A stretch of DNA of 53,079 nt, from the IMG/VR virus record IMGVR_UViG_3300027801_001299, positions 1 through 53,079 of that record, one strand, 5' to 3'. Positions 4,953 to 46,807 of this stretch are shown here, in pieces. Position 1 is the first letter of the stretch. Each line of letters opens with the position of its first letter. The translations under genes were made by a program, and so were the position numbers. The DNA comes from a virus. Taxonomy: Duplodnaviria; Caudoviricetes. The notes beneath the pieces were generated by a model. It had not been told where the DNA came from and did not search any database. It worked only from the letters and a program-made list of their open reading frames with translations.

Positions 4953-5353
4953 AGATAGGATTTACTTGTGGTGCATTTGACCTCTTACACGCAGGTCATG
5001 TTGTCATGTTAAAAGAAGCACGACAGAATTGTGACCATCTTATTGTTGGATTACAGACCGACCCATCTATTGATAGACAATCAAAGAATCAACCAGTACA
5101 AAATGTATATGAAAGGTTCATACAATTATCCTCTTTACAATTTGTGGACGATGTGATACCATATGATACAGAACAAAGTTTAATGGACTTACTTGAATCA
5201 ACTCCTATCGATATTAGATTCGTTGGAGAGGATTACAAAGACAAACAATTTACGGGTGATAATTTACCAATAGAGGTATTTTACACAAACAGAAAACATT
5301 CTTTCTCAACAACAAATTTGAGAAGACAAGTAACAAAAGCGGGTATCGTATAA
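4949..5353 (+). CDS. Cytidylyltransferase (TagD-like)
   Basis: GAFDLLHAGH (HIGH), LIVGLQTD, FSTT. Confidence 0.9.
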   Translation: MKIGFTCGAFDLLHAGHVVMLKEARQNCDHLIVGLQTDPSIDRQSKNQPVQNVYERFIQLSSLQFVDDVIPYDTEQSLMDLLESTPIDIRFVGEDYKDKQFTGDNLPIEVFYTNRKHSFSTTNLRRQVTKAGIV

Positions 5354-5413
5354 TGGTTATTACAAGAGGTTTCCAACCTTTTGATGGGAGTTCGATTCTC
5401 TCTACCCGCTCCA
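5339..5413 (+). tRNA. tRNA-Gly(TCC)
   Basis: Cloverleaf GCGGGTA...TACCCGCTCCA with anticodon loop TTTCCAA and T-loop TTCGATT. Confidence 0.92.
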
Positions 5414-26586: not shown

Positions 26587-26662
26587 GCTCCCATAGCTCA
26601 GCTGGTAGAGCAACTGATTTGTAATCAGTAGGTCAACCGTTCGAATCGGTTTGGGAGCTCCA
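26587..26662 (+). tRNA. tRNA-Thr(TGT)
   Basis: GCTCCCA...TGGGAGCTCCA with anticodon loop TTTGTAA. Confidence 0.95.
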
Positions 26663-34795: not shown

Positions 34796-35037
34796 TTATT
34801 CACGCATACATTTTTAATGATGCACAACAGGGTGTCCAAGATATGAGGATTCAACATATGTTGAAGACCCTAGACCCCAAAGAACACGAAGTCCGAATTT
34901 TTATTCTAGGACAGGATTTCCATCAATCAGATGTAGAACATCCGTTGCCATTTGCAACACTGGATGGTAAGAAGAAATCATTTGATAATTTATGGAAAGA
35001 AGTAATAGGAGAAAAAGTACATGATAAAGATATTTAA
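34792..35037 (+). CDS. Hypothetical protein, possibly a degenerate glutaredoxin fold
   Basis: LGQDF...LPFATLDG resembles the neighbouring Grx but lacks CxxC. Confidence 0.5.
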   Translation: MIIHAYIFNDAQQGVQDMRIQHMLKTLDPKEHEVRIFILGQDFHQSDVEHPLPFATLDGKKKSFDNLWKEVIGEKVHDKDI

Positions 35038-35182
35038 AATACATTGCAATAGTTGTAAGAGTGAATTGGATATTCATCATGAGATGGACTCACACCAATA
35101 TGACATAGAGTTTTGCCCTTTTTGTGGGGAAGACATTGATGAGGATGAAGTAGAATTTGTCGATGAAATTGAAACAGAATAA
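35021..35182 (+). CDS. Small Zn-ribbon protein with acidic tail
   Basis: Own translation with CNSC...CPFCG; AGGAG upstream. Confidence 0.7.
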   Translation: MIKIFKIHCNSCKSELDIHHEMDSHQYDIEFCPFCGEDIDEDEVEFVDEIETE

Positions 35183-35756
35183 GAGAGTATTATTACTCGA
35201 TAATTCAGATGCATTTACTAACAACATTGCACAACTCTTCATCAACGCAGGTGCAGAAGTATTGGCATCGAGAAATGATGAACTCACTATCGAAGATGCA
35301 AAAGAACTAAACCCAACACACCTTTTCCTAACGCCTGGCAATGGGACTTACGATATTCATGGACTTAGACATCAAAAGTTTGTCCATGAGTTTCATCAGG
35401 ACATTCCGATATCAGGAGTATGTTTAGGTCACCAGTGCATTGCAGCCTATTTTGGTGCAAAGATAGATTCTAATGTCGTCCCATTACGAGGAATTGAAAC
35501 AGAATGTCAACATGATGGAGAAGGACTCTTTTCAGGAATTCCTACCCCATTTAATGTCGGTAGATATCACAATGATGTGGTCAATCCTGATTTAAAAGGA
35601 ACTCCACTGGTTGTATCTGCATGGTCAGATGGATTGGTAATGGCAATTCGACACACTACACTACCCATAGAATCATTCCAAATACACCCTGAGTCATCCT
35701 TCACAAGGAACGGACATGGGTCAACTCTTATAGAAAACTTCCTAAAAACCCCTTGA
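35163..35756 (+). CDS. Class I glutamine amidotransferase (TrpG/PabA-like)
   Basis: LDNSDAFT, GVCLGHQ, RYH, QIHPES. Confidence 0.9.
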   Translation: MKLKQNKRVLLLDNSDAFTNNIAQLFINAGAEVLASRNDELTIEDAKELNPTHLFLTPGNGTYDIHGLRHQKFVHEFHQDIPISGVCLGHQCIAAYFGAKIDSNVVPLRGIETECQHDGEGLFSGIPTPFNVGRYHNDVVNPDLKGTPLVVSAWSDGLVMAIRHTTLPIESFQIHPESSFTRNGHGSTLIENFLKTP

Positions 35757-35782
35757 CGTAGACCCCCTTCTTATGTTATACT
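35753..35782 (+). promoter_or_regulatory. Early sigma70-like promoter
   Basis: TTGACG-18-TATACT with extended -10 TG. Confidence 0.7.
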
Positions 35783-35794
35783 AGATGTATAGTT

Positions 35795-36256
35795 ATGAGA
35801 AAGGTAAATAATTTTATGGTCAATGTCGGAATAATTGGTCAAATTGCAAGAAAAAGGGAAATCTACGGATACATCCAAGACACCATTTACCACTTACACC
35901 CCAACTTAAGACGAAATGTAGACCTAGAGTTGTCTATTACGTCATATAAGATAGAAAACGGTGACTACTCGTATGCAACTTGTTCAGGTAACAGAGGACA
36001 AATAGACATCATACTCAATAGATTAGATGAAGACGGTATTAAATTTACCCATAATCAAATGATGCTCAATCTTGCACATGAATTAGTCCACGCAAAACAG
36101 TTTATCAAGGGTGAATTATCTCCAAAACTACAGAGATTTAAACGCAAATACCATGGAAAAACTCCTTATTCGAGACAACCATGGGAGAAAGAAGCATACA
36201 AGTTAGAGAGTAAATTATACAATATGTTTTGGGTCGGAAGAGAAAACTTTATATAG
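35795..36256 (+). CDS. Zn metallopeptidase-like protein (HExxH)
   Basis: LAHELVHAKQ...PWEKEAY. Confidence 0.8.
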   Translation: MRKVNNFMVNVGIIGQIARKREIYGYIQDTIYHLHPNLRRNVDLELSITSYKIENGDYSYATCSGNRGQIDIILNRLDEDGIKFTHNQMMLNLAHELVHAKQFIKGELSPKLQRFKRKYHGKTPYSRQPWEKEAYKLESKLYNMFWVGRENFI

Positions 36257-36263
36257 AAAGTAC

Positions 36264-36293
36264 TTGACAATGACTCTCACTTTTTGTTATAAT
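36264..36293 (+). promoter_or_regulatory. Early sigma70-like promoter driving the ncRNA candidate
   Basis: TTGACAATG...TG-T-TATAAT with an 18-nt spacer. Confidence 0.85.
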
Positions 36294-36367
36294 ATACATA
36301 TAGTCGGAAAAGAAAACGACTTTAAAACCTTCTCGAAAGAGATAACCAAAGATTCTTATATCCATTT

Positions 36368-36629
36368 GGAGATTTTAACTACCAGTTAAGTGTTTCAGAT
36401 AGTTGGATAGTGCCGTGTAATACACCAGCCAATTCCAACCCCTGCGTGAGTAGACGAAAGTTGAAGCGGTAACGGAGACCTGAATTAATATTGATGAATA
36501 ACGGCTGATGTACTTGGGCTTATATAGGAGACAATCCTTGACCCCCTAATAGTTAGATTTTTTATGGACAGGTGGTGTGAAACGACTCTAGAAGTAGACA
36601 CTCAAGTATCACTCCTGCAAATCTCCACC
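36368..36629 (+). ncRNA. Structured ncRNA candidate (~260 nt) closed by a tRNA-acceptor-like stem
   Basis: GGAGATTT (36368) pairs with AAATCTCC-ACC (36619-36629), followed by a T run. Several internal helices; no credible ORF. Confidence 0.65.
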
Positions 36630-36656
36630 TTTTTTAAATGTTCCAACGAGGTAATT

Positions 36657-36845
36657 ATGGAATTTAATGATTTTACAACAAAGATGTATACTGAGAATTG
36701 TGTCGAACGAAGACAACATGGTGAAGACCAATACAAAACAGTATCAGAGTATGTTGCAAATGGAACAAACATGGTATTTCTAAAACAGAAGTATCAAGAG
36801 TATTTGGATAACCCTACGGATTTCTTTTACAAGATTCAGAAATAA
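36657..36845 (+). CDS. Hypothetical protein
   Basis: GAGG SD then MEFNDFTTKMYTENCVER. Confidence 0.65.
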   Translation: MEFNDFTTKMYTENCVERRQHGEDQYKTVSEYVANGTNMVFLKQKYQEYLDNPTDFFYKIQK

Positions 36846-36848
36846 GGG

Positions 36849-36878
36849 TTGACAATGCATACCTATTATTGTTATAAT
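36849..36878 (+). promoter_or_regulatory. Early sigma70-like promoter
   Basis: TTGACAATG, 18-nt spacer, TATAAT. Confidence 0.85.
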
Positions 36879-36903
36879 ATATCAGTAATAAGGAAATAAG
36901 ATT

Positions 36904-37404
36904 ATGAATATAAAGAGAATATTTATCGACATGGACGGAGTCCTTGCCGATTTCAACACTGGGGTGGAGACACTCACTGGAACACCTTTCCCGAATACGG
37001 ATAAGGGTCATAACGATTATGACCTGAGAAAGGAAGAATTGACCAATAAAAGATTGTTCAGAAACTTACCCCCATTGCCAGATATGTATGAACTGGTTGG
37101 GTATGTTAGACACACAAATCTTCCTTGGGAAATCCTAACTGCTGCTGGTGTTATCAACAGAGAGTTAGTAGTGTGGGACAAGAACGAATGGATTAAAGAA
37201 TACATTAGTCCGACAGTTGTAGTTACCTGCACAATGACTGGTAGTCAAAAAGGTATGTTTGCCTTTGAGGGAAGTGTCCTCATTGACGATAGAATTAAGA
37301 ACATTGAGTCTTGGGAAGCAAATGGTGGGATAGGTATCCTTCACACAAGTGCTGCTGAGACTATAAAAGAATTGAAGACTCTCAGAAATGGGAGTGCTTC
37401 TTAA
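36904..37404 (+). CDS. HAD-family 5'(3')-deoxyribonucleotidase-like protein
   Basis: IDMDGVLADF, ILTA, LIDDR...WEANGGIGILH. Confidence 0.85.
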   Translation: MNIKRIFIDMDGVLADFNTGVETLTGTPFPNTDKGHNDYDLRKEELTNKRLFRNLPPLPDMYELVGYVRHTNLPWEILTAAGVINRELVVWDKNEWIKEYISPTVVVTCTMTGSQKGMFAFEGSVLIDDRIKNIESWEANGGIGILHTSAAETIKELKTLRNGSAS

Positions 37405-37475
37405 CAAATTCAACAATCAAGTTGAATGAATAGATGGACATGGGAATGTATCATCGCTTATATGGAGAAAATATA

Positions 37476-37733
37476 ATGGCTTTATCTAAAACGCAAAAAG
37501 TGTTAAACCTACTTTCAAAAGGTAAAAATGTAAAATGGACTACAATCCGTAACCGTTTCGATTTACAATCACCAGCAAGAACTGTTGGAAAATTGCAATC
37601 AATGGGTCATGTAATCTATACTAATGTTAGTTCAGCAGGAACTTCATATAGAATGGGTACTCCTTCACTCGCAATCTTGGCAGCAGGTCAAGCAGCGATG
37701 AACGGTGGGTCACTCTTTACATACGAAAGCTAA
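37476..37733 (+). CDS. Winged-HTH DNA-binding protein
   Basis: MALSKTQKVLNLL...SPARTVGKLQSMGHVIY...YRMG; GGAG SD. Confidence 0.7.
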   Translation: MALSKTQKVLNLLSKGKNVKWTTIRNRFDLQSPARTVGKLQSMGHVIYTNVSSAGTSYRMGTPSLAILAAGQAAMNGGSLFTYES

Positions 37734-37757
37734 GAGATACTTTTTAGTTGACTAAAT

Positions 37758-37783
37758 AATAGACACACTTCGGTGTGTCTATT
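37758..37783. terminator. Stable UUCG hairpin (terminator or 5' stabiliser)
   Basis: AATAGACACAC-TTCG-GTGTGTCTATT, directly after TAAATA. Confidence 0.65.
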
Positions 37784-37800
37784 TGTAAGAGGATACATAT

Positions 37801-38037
37801 ATGATAAAACGAAAATTAACACAATGGTTCAATGCTATAAAGTATTGGTTCCTTCCCGAATACGAAATCACCGTTTTTAGAACGCAGGATTTGACGGGCA
37901 ATGTTTATAAGGACGAATACGTCTCAAAGAAAATCCTCATCCAAAAAGAAAAACATCTCAAATTCAGAGATAAAGAAAAACGTATAGTCGAACTTAGAAG
38001 TGCTAAGGGATTAGACTATAGAATTAAGGAGCTATAA
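37801..38037 (+). CDS. Hypothetical protein
   Basis: GAGG SD; first gene of the spanin unit. Confidence 0.65.
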   Translation: MIKRKLTQWFNAIKYWFLPEYEITVFRTQDLTGNVYKDEYVSKKILIQKEKHLKFRDKEKRIVELRSAKGLDYRIKEL

Positions 38038-42640: not shown

Positions 42641-42716
42641 GGGGTCTTAGCTCAGTTGGGAGAGCGCTTCCCTTGCACGGAAGAGGTCGCAGGTTCGACC
42701 CCTGTAGACTCCACCA
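42641..42716 (+). tRNA. tRNA-Ala(TGC)
   Basis: G3:U70 pair, anticodon loop CTTGCAC, encoded CCA. Confidence 0.96.
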
Positions 42717-42726
42717 GTTTCTAATT

Positions 42727-42816
42727 GGAAGATTGGCAGAGTGGTTGAATGCACTGGTCTTGAAAACCAGCAAAGGGTCAAACCTTTCGAAGGTTCGAAT
42801 CCTTCATCTTCCGCCA
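42727..42816 (+). tRNA. tRNA-Ser(TGA)
   Basis: Anticodon loop CTTGAAA, long variable arm, GCCA end. Confidence 0.96.
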
Positions 42817-43021: not shown

Positions 43022-43128
43022 CTTGTTGATAAACATATATACTTATGTGACATTTATGTGACAAGACAAAGTAGACGAAAGTCGAAGTGCAGTTCACGGA
43101 TAGTCAATAACAACTTAAGGAGATAACA

Positions 43129-45953: not shown

Positions 45954-46161
45954 AGAACCATCTACGAATCGTATATACTCTCGTGTATGCAACCAACGTC
46001 ATCAATGCTGTTATGGATGTACCTATATGAAATGGGTTCGTCCAATCTAACACCTGCATGAACAGATAGAGGAGTGTAAGGTTTAACGGATAGTTAATTA
46101 ACAGACCCGTACCTACCGTAGTGGCGACTTCTCGGTGTAACTTTCTTGATTCTTTAGACAT
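45940..46161 (-). CDS. Small two-TM membrane protein
   Basis: MSKESRK..., two TMs, YTIRRWF; TATACA-17-TATAAT-N6-ATG upstream. Confidence 0.75.
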   Translation of the reverse strand: MSKESRKLHREVATTVGTGLLINYPLNLTLLYLFMQVLDWTNPFHIGTSITALMTLVAYTRVYTIRRWFSKRG

Positions 46162-46245
46162 AACTCTATTATACACCTCTGAGACCCCTTTGTATAGGGG
46201 TTTTTAATATAATCTAAGGACTGCGTAGGTGATGGTTAATATAAT

Positions 46246-46329
46246 GTGTGGGGATGTGGGTAATTGTGTGTAATAATAATGGAAATCGAAGGGAATGGAG
46301 AGATGTGGAATAAAGTGGGATTAGGTGGT
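46246..46329. repeat. 10-bp-phased GTG(G/T)G repeat arrays in a C-free tract
   Basis: GTGTG/GTGGG/GTGTG at 46246/46256/46266 and ATGG/GTGG x3 at 46295/46305/46315/46325. Confidence 0.7.
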
Positions 46330-46389
46330 GTTGTTCGGGGATGCAAACACGAGTTTTAGTCGGGAGTCAAGGGCCCTCGGAGGCGTTTC

Positions 46390-46587
46390 CTATTCGACTT
46401 CCCACGTCATCGCCATTGGATACAGCACGATATCAATGGGTTTCTCTCTGTCTATCTTAAGCGCATCGTACTCCTCTTGTGTGATGAACGTAGCGTCTTC
46501 CGTCCATTCTTTGTCCGTCCAGTTCTCTAGTGTCTCTCCTAGACGGTGGGTTTGTGCAATCCAGTTGTTATATCCTTCTAGTGACAT
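46390..46587 (-). CDS. Hypothetical early protein
   Basis: Lies downstream of the leftward early promoter. Confidence 0.5.
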   Translation of the reverse strand: MSLEGYNNWIAQTHRLGETLENWTDKEWTEDATFITQEEYDALKIDREKPIDIVLYPMAMTWEVE

Positions 46588-46745
46588 GATACATAGGCCT
46601 CGTCTGAACTCATGGGAGAGCGGTTGAGTGCAATTTGTATGTTGACCTTCTCTGCGTACTCATGAGCGGCCATCTTTGTCTTGAATATCTTTGCACATAG
46701 GGGTCGGTGAGTGTGTAAGCAGCTGATTCGGTAGTAAAATTTCAT
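46578..46745 (-). CDS. Hypothetical early protein (55 aa)
   Basis: Own translation MKFYYRISCLHTHRPLCAKIF...; AAAGGA SD. Confidence 0.55.
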   Translation of the reverse strand: MKFYYRISCLHTHRPLCAKIFKTKMAAHEYAEKVNIQIALNRSPMSSDEAYVSCH

Positions 46746-46777
46746 GTTTCTTTCCTTTCTTCTCTCAGTGAAGTAGT

Positions 46778-46807
46778 ATTATCTCATAAATGGGGGGTCA
46801 TTGTCAA
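46778..46807 (-). promoter_or_regulatory. Leftward early promoter
   Basis: TTGACAATG, 18-nt spacer, GATAAT. Confidence 0.75.

What the first reader, a model, noticed from the sequence alone, without database searches (positions are those of the whole stretch)
36302..36635. Unassigned, pseudoknotted ~260-nt ncRNA with its own strong promoter and a tRNA-like end
Seen: a consensus promoter (36264-36293) is followed by ~350 nt with no credible ORF. The leader has two hairpins (AGTCG/CGACT and TCTC-GAAA-GAGA). An 8-bp stem, GGAGATTT/AAATCTCC, is followed by ACC and a T run. Internal pairings are TTAACT/AGTTAA, GTTGGA(36402)/TCCAAC(36434), CAGCC(36426)/GGCTG(36503), TACTTGGG(36511)/CTCAAGTA(36601) and CAGG(36569)/CCTG(36614); the second and third cross as a pseudoknot. 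A loop-E module AGTA-GAC-GAAA-GTT-GAA is also present. I cannot match it to tmRNA, RNase P or group I/II introns. Inference: an early, possibly tRNA-like-processed RNA acting as a ribozyme, decoy or protein sponge.
Basis: partly seen in the sequence, partly recalled or inferred. Interest (0 to 1): 0.8.

Follow-up and report, generated by a model that had tools for sequence, protein, structure and literature searches.

The report
Unclassified early noncoding RNA, marine phage
A marine T4-like phage carries, behind a perfect early promoter, a gene-sized stretch that codes for no protein and looks like a folded RNA of an undescribed family, but it is known from only four versions and its job is unknown.

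Summary
The window is a fragment of an uncultured marine T4-like phage. A 12/12 sigma-70 promoter (36264-36293) is followed by about 335 nt with no conserved ORF. This consists of a 68-nt leader (36300-36367), a 262-nt body closed by an 8-bp terminal helix (36368-36375 with 36619-36626), and a run of six T.

Three other versions exist in marine metagenomes. Promoter plus leader are identical over 96 nt, while the flanking genes are 87-89% identical and the body is about 76% identical with large indels. A related phage lacks the element. Others carry small ORFs in the same slot, so it behaves as a cassette in a hypervariable early region.

Rfam, ARAGORN and a T4 rnaC/rnaD comparison give no match. 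Contigs of four RNA libraries cover it.

Compensatory changes support the terminal helix and several hairpins, but unbiased controls are only marginal, and folding energy is no better than for shuffled sequence. The "tRNA-like end" fails: there is no T arm, and the ACC is not conserved. The pseudoknot is unproven.

Best reading (0.45): a stand-alone structured early phage RNA of a new family. Function is inferred only.

The parts
36264..36293 (+). Sigma-70-type early promoter (-35 TTGACA, 18-nt spacer with TG, -10 TATAAT)
   Evidence: 12 of 12 matches. It is one of 4 perfect sites in the window against 0.20 expected. It is identical in L002 and has 1 spacer change in L099/L103.
36300..36367 (+). 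Invariant 5' leader. Predicted start is about 36298-36300. Hairpin 1 is 36302-36321. Hairpin 2 has a GAAA loop at 36331-36342.
   Evidence: Positions 36262-36357 are identical in window and L002 (96 nt), while flanking genes are 87-89% identical. The leader is identical in all 4 versions. An RNA-library variant contig begins about 36298. The hairpins never vary, so comparison neither supports nor refutes them.
36368..36375 (+). P1, 5' strand (GGAGATTT)
   Evidence: Pairs with 36619-36626. G-C at the 4th pair becomes A-U in the 3 other versions, changing on both sides.
36375..36389 (+). P2 hairpin (TTAAC / GTTAA, loop containing ACC)
Evidence: 5 pairs are kept in 4 of 4 versions. One A-U becomes G-U, which fits RNA pairing.
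36394..36484 (+). P3 (TTCA 36394-36397 with TGAA 36481-36484) enclosing variable domain 1. The domain includes GTTGGA/TCCAAC 36402-36439, hairpin GTGT-AAT-ACAC 36415-36425, GNRA-capped hairpins, and the motif at 36449-36466.
   Evidence: P3 has 2 of 4 pairs changed on both sides in the other versions. The enclosed domain is 79 nt here, 98 nt in L099/L103 and about 150 nt in L002, and cannot be aligned. Other versions have a different helix at the place of GTTGGA/TCCAAC. That was read by eye and is not counted.
36489..36500 (+). P5 hairpin (TATT-GATG-AATA)
   Evidence: 2 of 4 pairs changed on both sides in L002, giving TGAT-TAGC-ATCA.
36498..36567 (+). Most conserved core block, gap-free in all versions. 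Contains AACGGCTGATG, TTGGG (36514-36518) / CCTAA (36545-36549), inner hairpin AGG (36526-36528) / CCT (36536-36538), and TTTTTATGGAC.
   Evidence: 70 columns without indels. The inner hairpin G-C becomes A-U in L002. The outer helix never varies.
36569..36617 (+). P9 3' hairpin domain next to P1. Outer helix is CAGG / CCTG. Inner helix is G(G)TG 36574-36577 / CAC 36610-36612.
   Evidence: The other versions have ACGA/TCGT at the outer helix, with 2 pairs changed on both sides when read in register by eye. MAFFT places the gap differently. For the inner helix, L099 against L103 has 1 pair changed on both sides in the counted register. A second such pair plus a wobble appear in an alternative register read by eye.
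36619..36626 (+). P1, 3' strand (AAATCTCC)
   Evidence: See the entry for the P1 5' strand.
36627..36635 (+). ACC followed by TTTTTT, the likely 3' end or leaky terminator
   Evidence: The T run is kept in all 4 versions. The spacer is ACC in window and L002 and AC in L099 and L103. The consensus terminator scan does not call it, because the closing helix is long-range.
36648..36845 (+). Context: downstream 65-aa gene with its own GAGG ribosome-binding site and no promoter of its own
   Evidence: ORF and sequence are. Relatives have this gene without the RNA element.

Best explanation
The stretch is an independent early transcription unit of an uncultured marine T4-like phage. It makes a noncoding RNA of about 335 nt.

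Shown:
- A consensus host-type promoter.
- No conserved reading frame.
- A 68-nt leader that does not vary.
- A body whose two ends pair (P1).
- A variable-length peripheral domain.
- A conserved 3' domain, followed by a U run.
- Cassette-like presence or absence in a hypervariable early region.

Inferred:
- Host RNA polymerase transcribes it at the start of infection.
- Most transcripts end at or near the U run after P1 forms.
- The folded RNA accumulates and acts in trans during host take-over. The most likely mode is as a scaffold or decoy that binds a host or phage protein or RNA. The invariant leader would provide the sequence-specific contact and the body the stable fold.
For: Promoter: 12 of 12 matches, one of 4 perfect sites against 0.20 expected.

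No ORF is conserved among the 4 versions.

No match to any Rfam family at E up to 10 in three versions. No tRNA or tmRNA call.

Conservation pattern typical of an RNA gene:
- 96 identical nt over promoter and leader, against 87.1% and 88.6% identity for the flanking genes.
- The body is 75.8% identical with 79 gap columns.

Structure:
- 46 proposed pairs are formed in 96.2% of 184 cells.
- 7 pairs changed on both sides, against 2.4 +/- 1.3 in shuffles (0 of 500) and 0-2 in slid controls.
- Between the close pair L099 and L002, all 6 substitutions in paired columns form 3 complete compensatory pairs.

Cassette behaviour:
- L003/L009/L010 have promoter then downstream gene, without the element.
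- L008, L015 and L030 have small ORFs in the slot.
- This fits the promoter-bounded shuffling described for T4-like hyperplastic regions (PMC4122927, abstract read).

Contigs of 4 of 4 laid RNA libraries, from 4 studies, cover it. One 294-nt contig lies wholly inside it (36316-36609). A variant contig starts about 36298.
Against: - Folding energies are not better than shuffles.
- The structure was chosen by me after seeing the sequences.
- Controls that scan all possible helices are weak. Total compensatory pairs are not raised (P = 0.22, 0.27, 0.81). Helices with 2 or more compensatory pairs are only marginal (P = 0.023 and 0.077; P = 0.11).
- Only 4 distinct versions exist, and 3 of them are close to each other.
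- The RNA-library data are contigs. They show neither ends, strand nor level, and DNA carry-over is not excluded.
- The downstream gene has no promoter of its own, so the element is also physically a 5' leader.
- No partner or target was found. The longest complement in the window is 12 nt, about what chance gives by my estimate.
Confidence: 0.45

Rival explanations
1. It is a cis-acting 5' leader of the downstream early genes. The fold closes P1 next to the U run and works as a leaky or conditional terminator (attenuator or riboswitch-like) that sets how much transcription reaches the 65-aa gene and beyond.
For: No promoter lies between the T run and the 65-aa gene. P1's 3' strand sits 2-3 nt before a conserved T run in all 4 versions. 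RNA-library contigs bridge the T run: X3 covers 35964-36896 and X15 covers 36557-38000.
Against: The 65-aa gene exists in relatives directly behind the same kind of promoter without the element, or behind unrelated ORFs. So the element is not tied to it. The body varies from 262 to about 330 nt with an unalignable domain. No riboswitch or leader family matches. The consensus scan does not call a terminator here.
Confidence: 0.25
2. It is transcribed filler: the decayed remains of an early gene cassette, or a selfish insert, with no function of its own.
For: Distribution is narrow, with 4 versions found across all collections searched. There are large indels in the body. Folding energy equals that of shuffles. 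The slot is hypervariable.
Against: The 96-nt invariant promoter and leader sit beside genes that are 87-89% identical. Substitutions between close versions fall as complete compensatory pairs or in loops. No frame shows remnants of a shared protein.
Confidence: 0.12
3. It is an unrecognised ribozyme or intron-like RNA with a compact tertiary fold, which cuts or joins RNA. An example would be processing its own transcript to release the downstream mRNA.
For: The size and multi-domain layout fit, with a variable periphery and a conserved core. The window version has 3 GNRA-capped hairpins against 0.86 expected (P = 0.045). The two most conserved blocks contain CCTAAT/CCTAAG and TATGG. By recall these resemble the two halves of the 11-nt GAAA-tetraloop receptor. 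The invariant leader hairpin has a GAAA loop.
Against: Rfam group I, group II, RNase P and small-ribozyme models give nothing at E up to 10. No exons are interrupted. The receptor-like halves are not flanked by helices in any version. That was read, so the defining context is not met. Tetraloop enrichment is absent in the other 3 versions.
Confidence: 0.08
4. It is a tRNA-like RNA. RNase P would cut at 36368, the T run would be trimmed, and CCA would be completed on the acceptor-like P1.
For: There is an 8-bp terminal helix followed by ACC in the window and L002. T4 itself has stable RNAs beside its tRNAs. In the T4 record, rnaD ends in CCA and rnaC carries a T-arm-like GGTTCGAATCC.
Against: ARAGORN and the Rfam tRNA and tmRNA models find nothing here. 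No T arm lies next to P1's 3' strand. The tail is AC+T-run in L099 and L103. All 4 tRNA genes of this phage encode CCA in full. RNA-library contigs include the leader.
Confidence: 0.05
5. It is a replication-origin transcript. A strong promoter would make a purine-rich RNA that stays as an R-loop and primes DNA synthesis, as recalled for some T4 origins.
For: There is a strong promoter followed by ORF-free DNA. The leader is A/G-rich and invariant at the DNA level.
Against: There is no turn in GC skew or composition at the locus. Compensatory changes point to RNA folding. The element is absent from close relatives.
Confidence: 0.04

Closest known systems
T4 rnaC and rnaD (species 1 and 2 stable RNAs)
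   Same: They are noncoding stable RNAs of a T4-type phage with no known function. PMC3014915 and PMC9697503 (passages read) say their roles are unknown, and that no trans-acting small RNA or riboswitch had been characterised in T4.
   Different: The T4 RNAs are 139 and 119 nt, lie in the tRNA cluster, and are described as late. rnaC has a T-arm-like sequence and rnaD a CCA end. The element here is about 335 nt, sits behind an early-type promoter far from the tRNAs, and has no T arm or CCA. Model R1 finds no match in the T4 region. Its best hit has E = 0.55 and is not at rnaC or rnaD.
Large ornate bacterial and phage RNAs (GOLLD, ROOL, OLE, HEARO, raiA)
   Same: They are multi-domain structured RNAs, some carried by phages, whose function is unknown or only recently studied (PMC12286853, listing and start of abstract only).
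   Different: No Rfam match to any of them. This element is smaller than GOLLD, ROOL or OLE. Its distribution is very narrow. No oligomer evidence exists.
Promoter-terminator cassettes (PeSL) of T4-like hyperplastic regions
   Same: A conserved early promoter bounds swappable cargo in a hypervariable region. Relatives carry different cargo, or none, in the same slot (PMC4122927, abstract).
   Different: The cargo here is an ORF-free structured RNA and not small protein genes. The 68-nt transcribed leader is specific to this cargo.
Transcription attenuators and riboswitch leaders
   Same: It lies between a promoter and a gene, with a closing helix next to a U run.
   Different: No family match. 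The closing helix spans 250 nt or more. The element is not linked to the downstream gene in relatives.

Membership tests
tRNA / tRNA-like RNA | Cloverleaf or at least a T arm stacked on the acceptor helix | tested here: not met
   ARAGORN finds 4 tRNAs elsewhere and none here. The Rfam tRNA model matches only those 4. No T-arm sequence lies next to 36619-36626.
tRNA / tRNA-like RNA | Conserved NCCA 3' end | tested here: not met
   The tail is ACC+T-run in 2 of 4 versions and AC+T-run in the other 2. The phage's own 4 tRNA genes all encode CCA.
tmRNA | tRNA-like domain plus a conserved tag reading frame | tested here: not met
   ARAGORN makes no tmRNA call and Rfam gives none. No short frame is shared by the versions. 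The third pair of P1 is A-U.
RNase P RNA | Match to the conserved core (P4 regions) as modelled in Rfam | tested here: not met
   No hit at E up to 10 in window, L099 or L002.
Group I / group II intron | Conserved catalytic core, and insertion within a gene (exons) | tested here: not met
   No Rfam hit. The flanking genes are complete, and they are adjacent in L003 without the element.
6S, Y/YrlA, GOLLD, ROOL, OLE, HEARO and other Rfam ncRNA families | Covariance-model match | tested here: not met
   Gathering-threshold scan of the whole window gives only 4 tRNAs. The E-value scans give nothing relevant.
T4 rnaC / rnaD | Sequence or structure similarity, and position in the tRNA cluster | tested here: not met
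   R1, which models the 3' domain only, gives no match at rnaC or rnaD. The element lies about 6 kb from the nearest tRNA gene. The 5' half was not compared.
Intrinsic terminator | Stable hairpin directly followed by a U run | tested here: inconclusive
   The U run is conserved. But the helix before it is the long-range, A/U-rich P1, and the consensus scan does not list it. Termination was not measured.
Structured RNA in general | Base pairs kept through compensatory change, beyond controls | tested here: inconclusive
   Positive on a structure chosen after the fact: 7 pairs against 2.4 +/- 1.3, 0 of 500 shuffles. Marginal or negative in scans of all helices.
Protein-coding gene | Conserved open frame with start and ribosome-binding site | tested here: not met
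   The frame over the leader has no ATG or GTG start downstream of the promoter. The 36564 frame is stopped in L002.

The most novel reading that the evidence does not exclude
The element founds a new class of large structured phage RNA with a defined tertiary fold. The invariant GAAA hairpin of the leader would dock on the conserved core. The RNA would act either as a ribozyme or as an RNA decoy for a host factor or defence during the first minutes of infection. That would make it the first functional noncoding RNA gene of the T4-like phages' hypervariable early regions.
Probability: 0.12. Interest if true: 0.85.

Novelty: new variant of a known kind. Interest (0 to 1): 0.5.

Why it matters
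The hypervariable early regions of T4-like phages are thought of as stores of small host-take-over proteins. A review of T4 RNA biology states that no trans-acting small RNA or riboswitch had been characterised there (PMC3014915, passage read).

An ORF-free, promoter-driven, structurally constrained RNA in such a slot would show that these cassettes can also carry RNA genes. The phage recurs in marine metagenomes and RNA libraries of many studies. If real, the element gives a concrete candidate for RNA-based host manipulation in abundant ocean phages.

The caveat is the very small family, which keeps both structure and function unproven.

Tried and rejected
**Searches for relatives**
- GenBank phages, blastn and megablast: no match.
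- blastn and nhmmer of the element against the 83 loci fetched through the two flanking proteins found only L002/L005, which are one contig.
- Four DNA patterns were scanned in viral contigs.
  - 10 stretches, 1 true.
  - 5 stretches, 1 true.
  - 1 stretch, true.
  - 5 stretches, 1 true.
  - The others are unrelated on reading and by nhmmer, where 1 of 14 loci matched.
- Two patterns in genome contigs: 0 and 0.
- Model R1 found only the 4 known copies in 85 sources. It found nothing better than E = 0.116 in 5 related virus records of 82-146 kb.

**Coverage of flanks in RNA-library contigs**
- In X17 and X18, nothing at 85% likeness or more lies on 35000-36299 or 36616-38000, apart from pieces of diverged relatives.
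- In X15, summed word depth is 164 upstream, 424-1150 over 36414-36615, and 35.5 downstream.
- The tool states that uncovered parts and contig depths cannot rank genes. The runs were also chosen for holding this stretch.
- So I do not use these as evidence of a discrete or abundant RNA.

**Structure and motif tests**
- The column-shuffle control (10 against 3.6 helices with covariation) was set aside as too lenient. Shuffling destroys local sequence.
- Tetraloop enrichment is nominal only in the window version (P = 0.045) and absent in the other three.
- Receptor-like motif: the flanking helices are missing, so I do not claim it.
- Resemblance of some short stretches to group I core elements was a recollection. 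Rfam does not support it, so it was dropped.

**Pseudoknot CAGCC/GGCTG**
- L099 and L103 keep a shifted complement.
- L002 breaks it.
- L002 instead shows a both-sided change between the P2 loop position (alignment column 90) and GGCTG/GGCAG (column 283).
- The two pairings exclude each other. Neither is established.

**Target and origin searches**
- Targets complementary to the RNA within the window: longest 12 nt.
- Origin of replication: no skew signal.

- Supplementary files were not consulted.

Full report
**What the window is**

The window is a 53-kb IMG/VR virus record, estimated 26% complete. It encodes a T4-type DNA polymerase (phrog_262, E = 1.3e-301) and ribonucleotide reductase. 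The polymerase is at most about 47% identical to those of cultured cyanophages. Nearly all long ORFs are on the + strand, and there are four tRNA genes. I read it as an uncultured marine T4-like myovirus with an unknown host.

**Checking the observation**

The promoter at 36264-36293 matches the consensus at 12 of 12 positions, with TG before the -10. Perfect sites of this kind occur 4 times in the window against 0.20 expected.

From 36294 to the ribosome-binding site of the next gene (ATG at 36648) there is no credible ORF. Three kinds of frame exist:
- The 41-aa frame starts inside the -35 box.
- The 93-aa frame is an upstream extension of the next gene, and it is closed by a stop in the homologue.
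- The minus-strand frames change by many amino-acid replacements between close versions.

On the single sequence the stems are not remarkable. Minimum free energies sit within the shuffle distribution: z = -0.42, z = -0.65, and +1.72 for the homologue.

**Relatives**

GenBank phages hold nothing similar. The flanking proteins gave 83 loci from IMG/VR, and only one contig (L002 = L005 = L086) carries the element. A 21-nt leader pattern found 5 metagenome stretches:
- two are the L002 type (L100, L101);
- two are identical TARA contigs (L099 = L102);
- one is a further version (L103).

Further patterns, a covariance model of the 3' domain (R1) and two scans of prokaryote genomes added none. The family therefore has four distinct versions, three of which are close to each other.

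**Conservation pattern**

Window and L002 are identical over 96 nt, from just before the -35 box to 36357. The neighbouring genes are 87.1% and 88.6% identical at the DNA level. The body is 75.8% identical with 79 gap columns. The leader is the same in all four versions.

The body has three parts:
- a conserved 5' part (P1, P2, GTTAAGTGTTT..GATAGT);
- a domain that cannot be aligned, of 79, 98 or about 150 nt;
- a 150-nt 3' domain that aligns almost without gaps.

Blocks are mosaic. Positions 36483-36510 are identical in the window and L099 but different in L002. That suggests exchange between versions.

**Genomic slot**

- In L003/L009/L010, the upstream 153-aa gene is followed by a similar promoter and then directly by the 65-aa gene.
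- In L008, two small ORFs sit between promoter and gene.
- L015 and L030 carry other small ORFs.

This is the behaviour described for promoter-bounded cassettes in the hyperplastic regions of T4-like phages (PMC4122927, abstract read; PMC2839356, listing only). The RNA element is one such cargo. It is not an obligate companion of the downstream gene.

**Structure**

I proposed nine helices after inspecting the alignment. On alignment A2 they are paired in 96.2% of 184 cells. Seven of 46 pairs change on both sides. Shuffles give 2.4 +/- 1.3 (0 of 500 reach 7), and slid partners give 0-2.

The both-sided changes fall in:
- P1 (1 pair);
- P3, which encloses the variable domain (2);
- hairpin P5 (2);
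- the inner core hairpin (1);
- P9 (1).

Between L099 and L002 there are 22 substitutions. The 6 that lie in paired columns form three complete compensatory pairs, and the rest lie in loops or unpaired columns. Between L099 and L103 there are 11 substitutions, and 7 of them cluster in P9 (columns 354-386). In the counted register these give one compensatory pair and one disruption. By eye, an alternative register with a bulge keeps a second compensatory pair and a wobble.

Against this stand three points:
- The structure was chosen after the fact.
- Scans of all possible helices with permuted substitutions do not show an excess of compensatory pairs (P = 0.22-0.81).
- They show only a marginal excess of helices with two or more such pairs (P = 0.023, 0.077 and 0.11).

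I conclude that P1, P3, P5, the core hairpin and P9 are plausible RNA helices but not proven. The leader hairpins and the TTGGG/CCTAA helix never vary and cannot be judged. The pseudoknot remains open. CAGCC/GGCTG is kept in shifted form in L099 and L103 and is broken in L002. In L002 the changed base instead covaries with the P2 loop.

**Identity**

- Rfam 15 gives only the four tRNAs at gathering threshold.
- It gives nothing meaningful at E up to 10 on the window, L099 or L002.
- ARAGORN finds no tRNA or tmRNA here.

The tRNA-like reading fails its defining features. There is no T arm, and the tail is AC+T-run in two versions. The phage's own tRNA genes all encode CCA.

In the T4 record, rnaC is 139 nt and carries a T-arm-like sequence. 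rnaD is 119 nt and ends in CCA. Both lie in the tRNA cluster, and R1 does not match them. The literature I read calls rnaC and rnaD RNAs of unknown function. It also says no trans-acting small RNA or riboswitch has been characterised in T4 (PMC3014915 and PMC9697503, passages only).

**Expression**

Of 24 runs listed, 20 hold the stretch or part of it, from 16 studies, and 6 of those are RNA libraries. I laid 4 RNA libraries from 4 studies, and all 4 have contigs on the element:
- a 933-nt contig spanning 35964-36896 (X3);
- a 294-nt contig lying wholly within 36316-36609 (X17);
- a 212-nt contig on 36368-36572 (X18);
- an L099-type variant contig beginning at about 36298 (X18), which is where the -10 box predicts the start.

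These are contigs. They show presence in RNA libraries, not ends, strand or level, and DNA carry-over cannot be excluded.

**Mechanism**

What is shown is a promoter-driven, ORF-free unit under nucleotide-level constraint. It has a closed multi-domain layout, a conserved U run, and cassette-like distribution.

What is inferred is that it is made early by host polymerase, ends mostly at the U run, and works as a free RNA. I put 0.45 on this stand-alone reading. Within it, a binding, decoy or scaffold role is the most likely, for two reasons:
- The invariant single-stranded and hairpin leader looks like a specific contact surface.
- The body tolerates large peripheral changes.

The rivals are:
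- cis-acting attenuator leader, 0.25;
- functionless cassette remnant, 0.12;
- unrecognised ribozyme, 0.08;
- tRNA-like processed RNA, 0.05;
- origin transcript, 0.04.

**Novelty and score**

It belongs to no described family that I could test. It would be a new RNA family within the known category of phage-encoded noncoding RNAs. The small family, the marginal statistics and the lack of any functional handle keep interest at 0.5.

Noticed in passing
window 36449-36466 and 43070-43087; L109:12757-12774: The 18-nt motif AGTAGACGAAAGTYGAAG is a GAAA-capped 3-bp hairpin flanked by AGTA and GAAG. By recall it is sarcin-ricin or loop-E-like. It occurs twice in the window against 0.13 expected. The second copy lies in another intergenic leader upstream of a small ORF. 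A related phage keeps it at the homologous place, just after a promoter-like site. The T/C difference keeps the pair (G-U against G-C). It may be a shared protein-binding hairpin of early transcripts.
   Followed up: partly
L002:3691-3739 (partner at L002:3787-3796): The L002 version has a roughly 50-nt insertion absent from L099 and L103. The insertion contains a TTCG-capped hairpin. It also contains a perfect 10-nt complement (GTCCCAATTC) to the conserved core GAATTGGGAC, followed by a 6-nt complement to the L002-specific GGCAGA.
   Followed up: no
L003:3440-3510; L008:2260-2745; L015:2560-2950; L030:2340-2925: The slot between the 153-aa gene and the nucleotidase gene is hypervariable among related phages. 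It holds nothing, the 65-aa gene alone, or different small ORFs. Each is behind a similar TTGACAATG...TATA(A/C)T promoter.
   Followed up: partly
window 36483-36510 compared with L099 and L002: This block is identical in the window and L099/L103 but differs at 9 positions in L002. Elsewhere L099 is much closer to L002. The pattern is mosaic and suggests recombination between RNA versions.
   Followed up: no
window 35795-36256: The upstream 153-aa protein contains an HELVH (HExxH-type) motif. It has only a sub-threshold Pfam hit and two PHROGs of unknown function. It may be a small metallopeptidase-like early protein.
   Followed up: no
window 5339-5413, 26587-26662, 42641-42716, 42727-42816: All four phage tRNA genes (Gly, Thr, Ala, Ser) encode their CCA ends.
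   Followed up: yes
window 45954-46800: This is a stretch poor in + strand ORFs. It has a canonical-looking terminator (GACCCCTTTGTATAGGGGTTTTT, about 46184-46206) and probably one or more minus-strand genes. That is unusual in a window whose long ORFs are almost all on the + strand.
   Followed up: no
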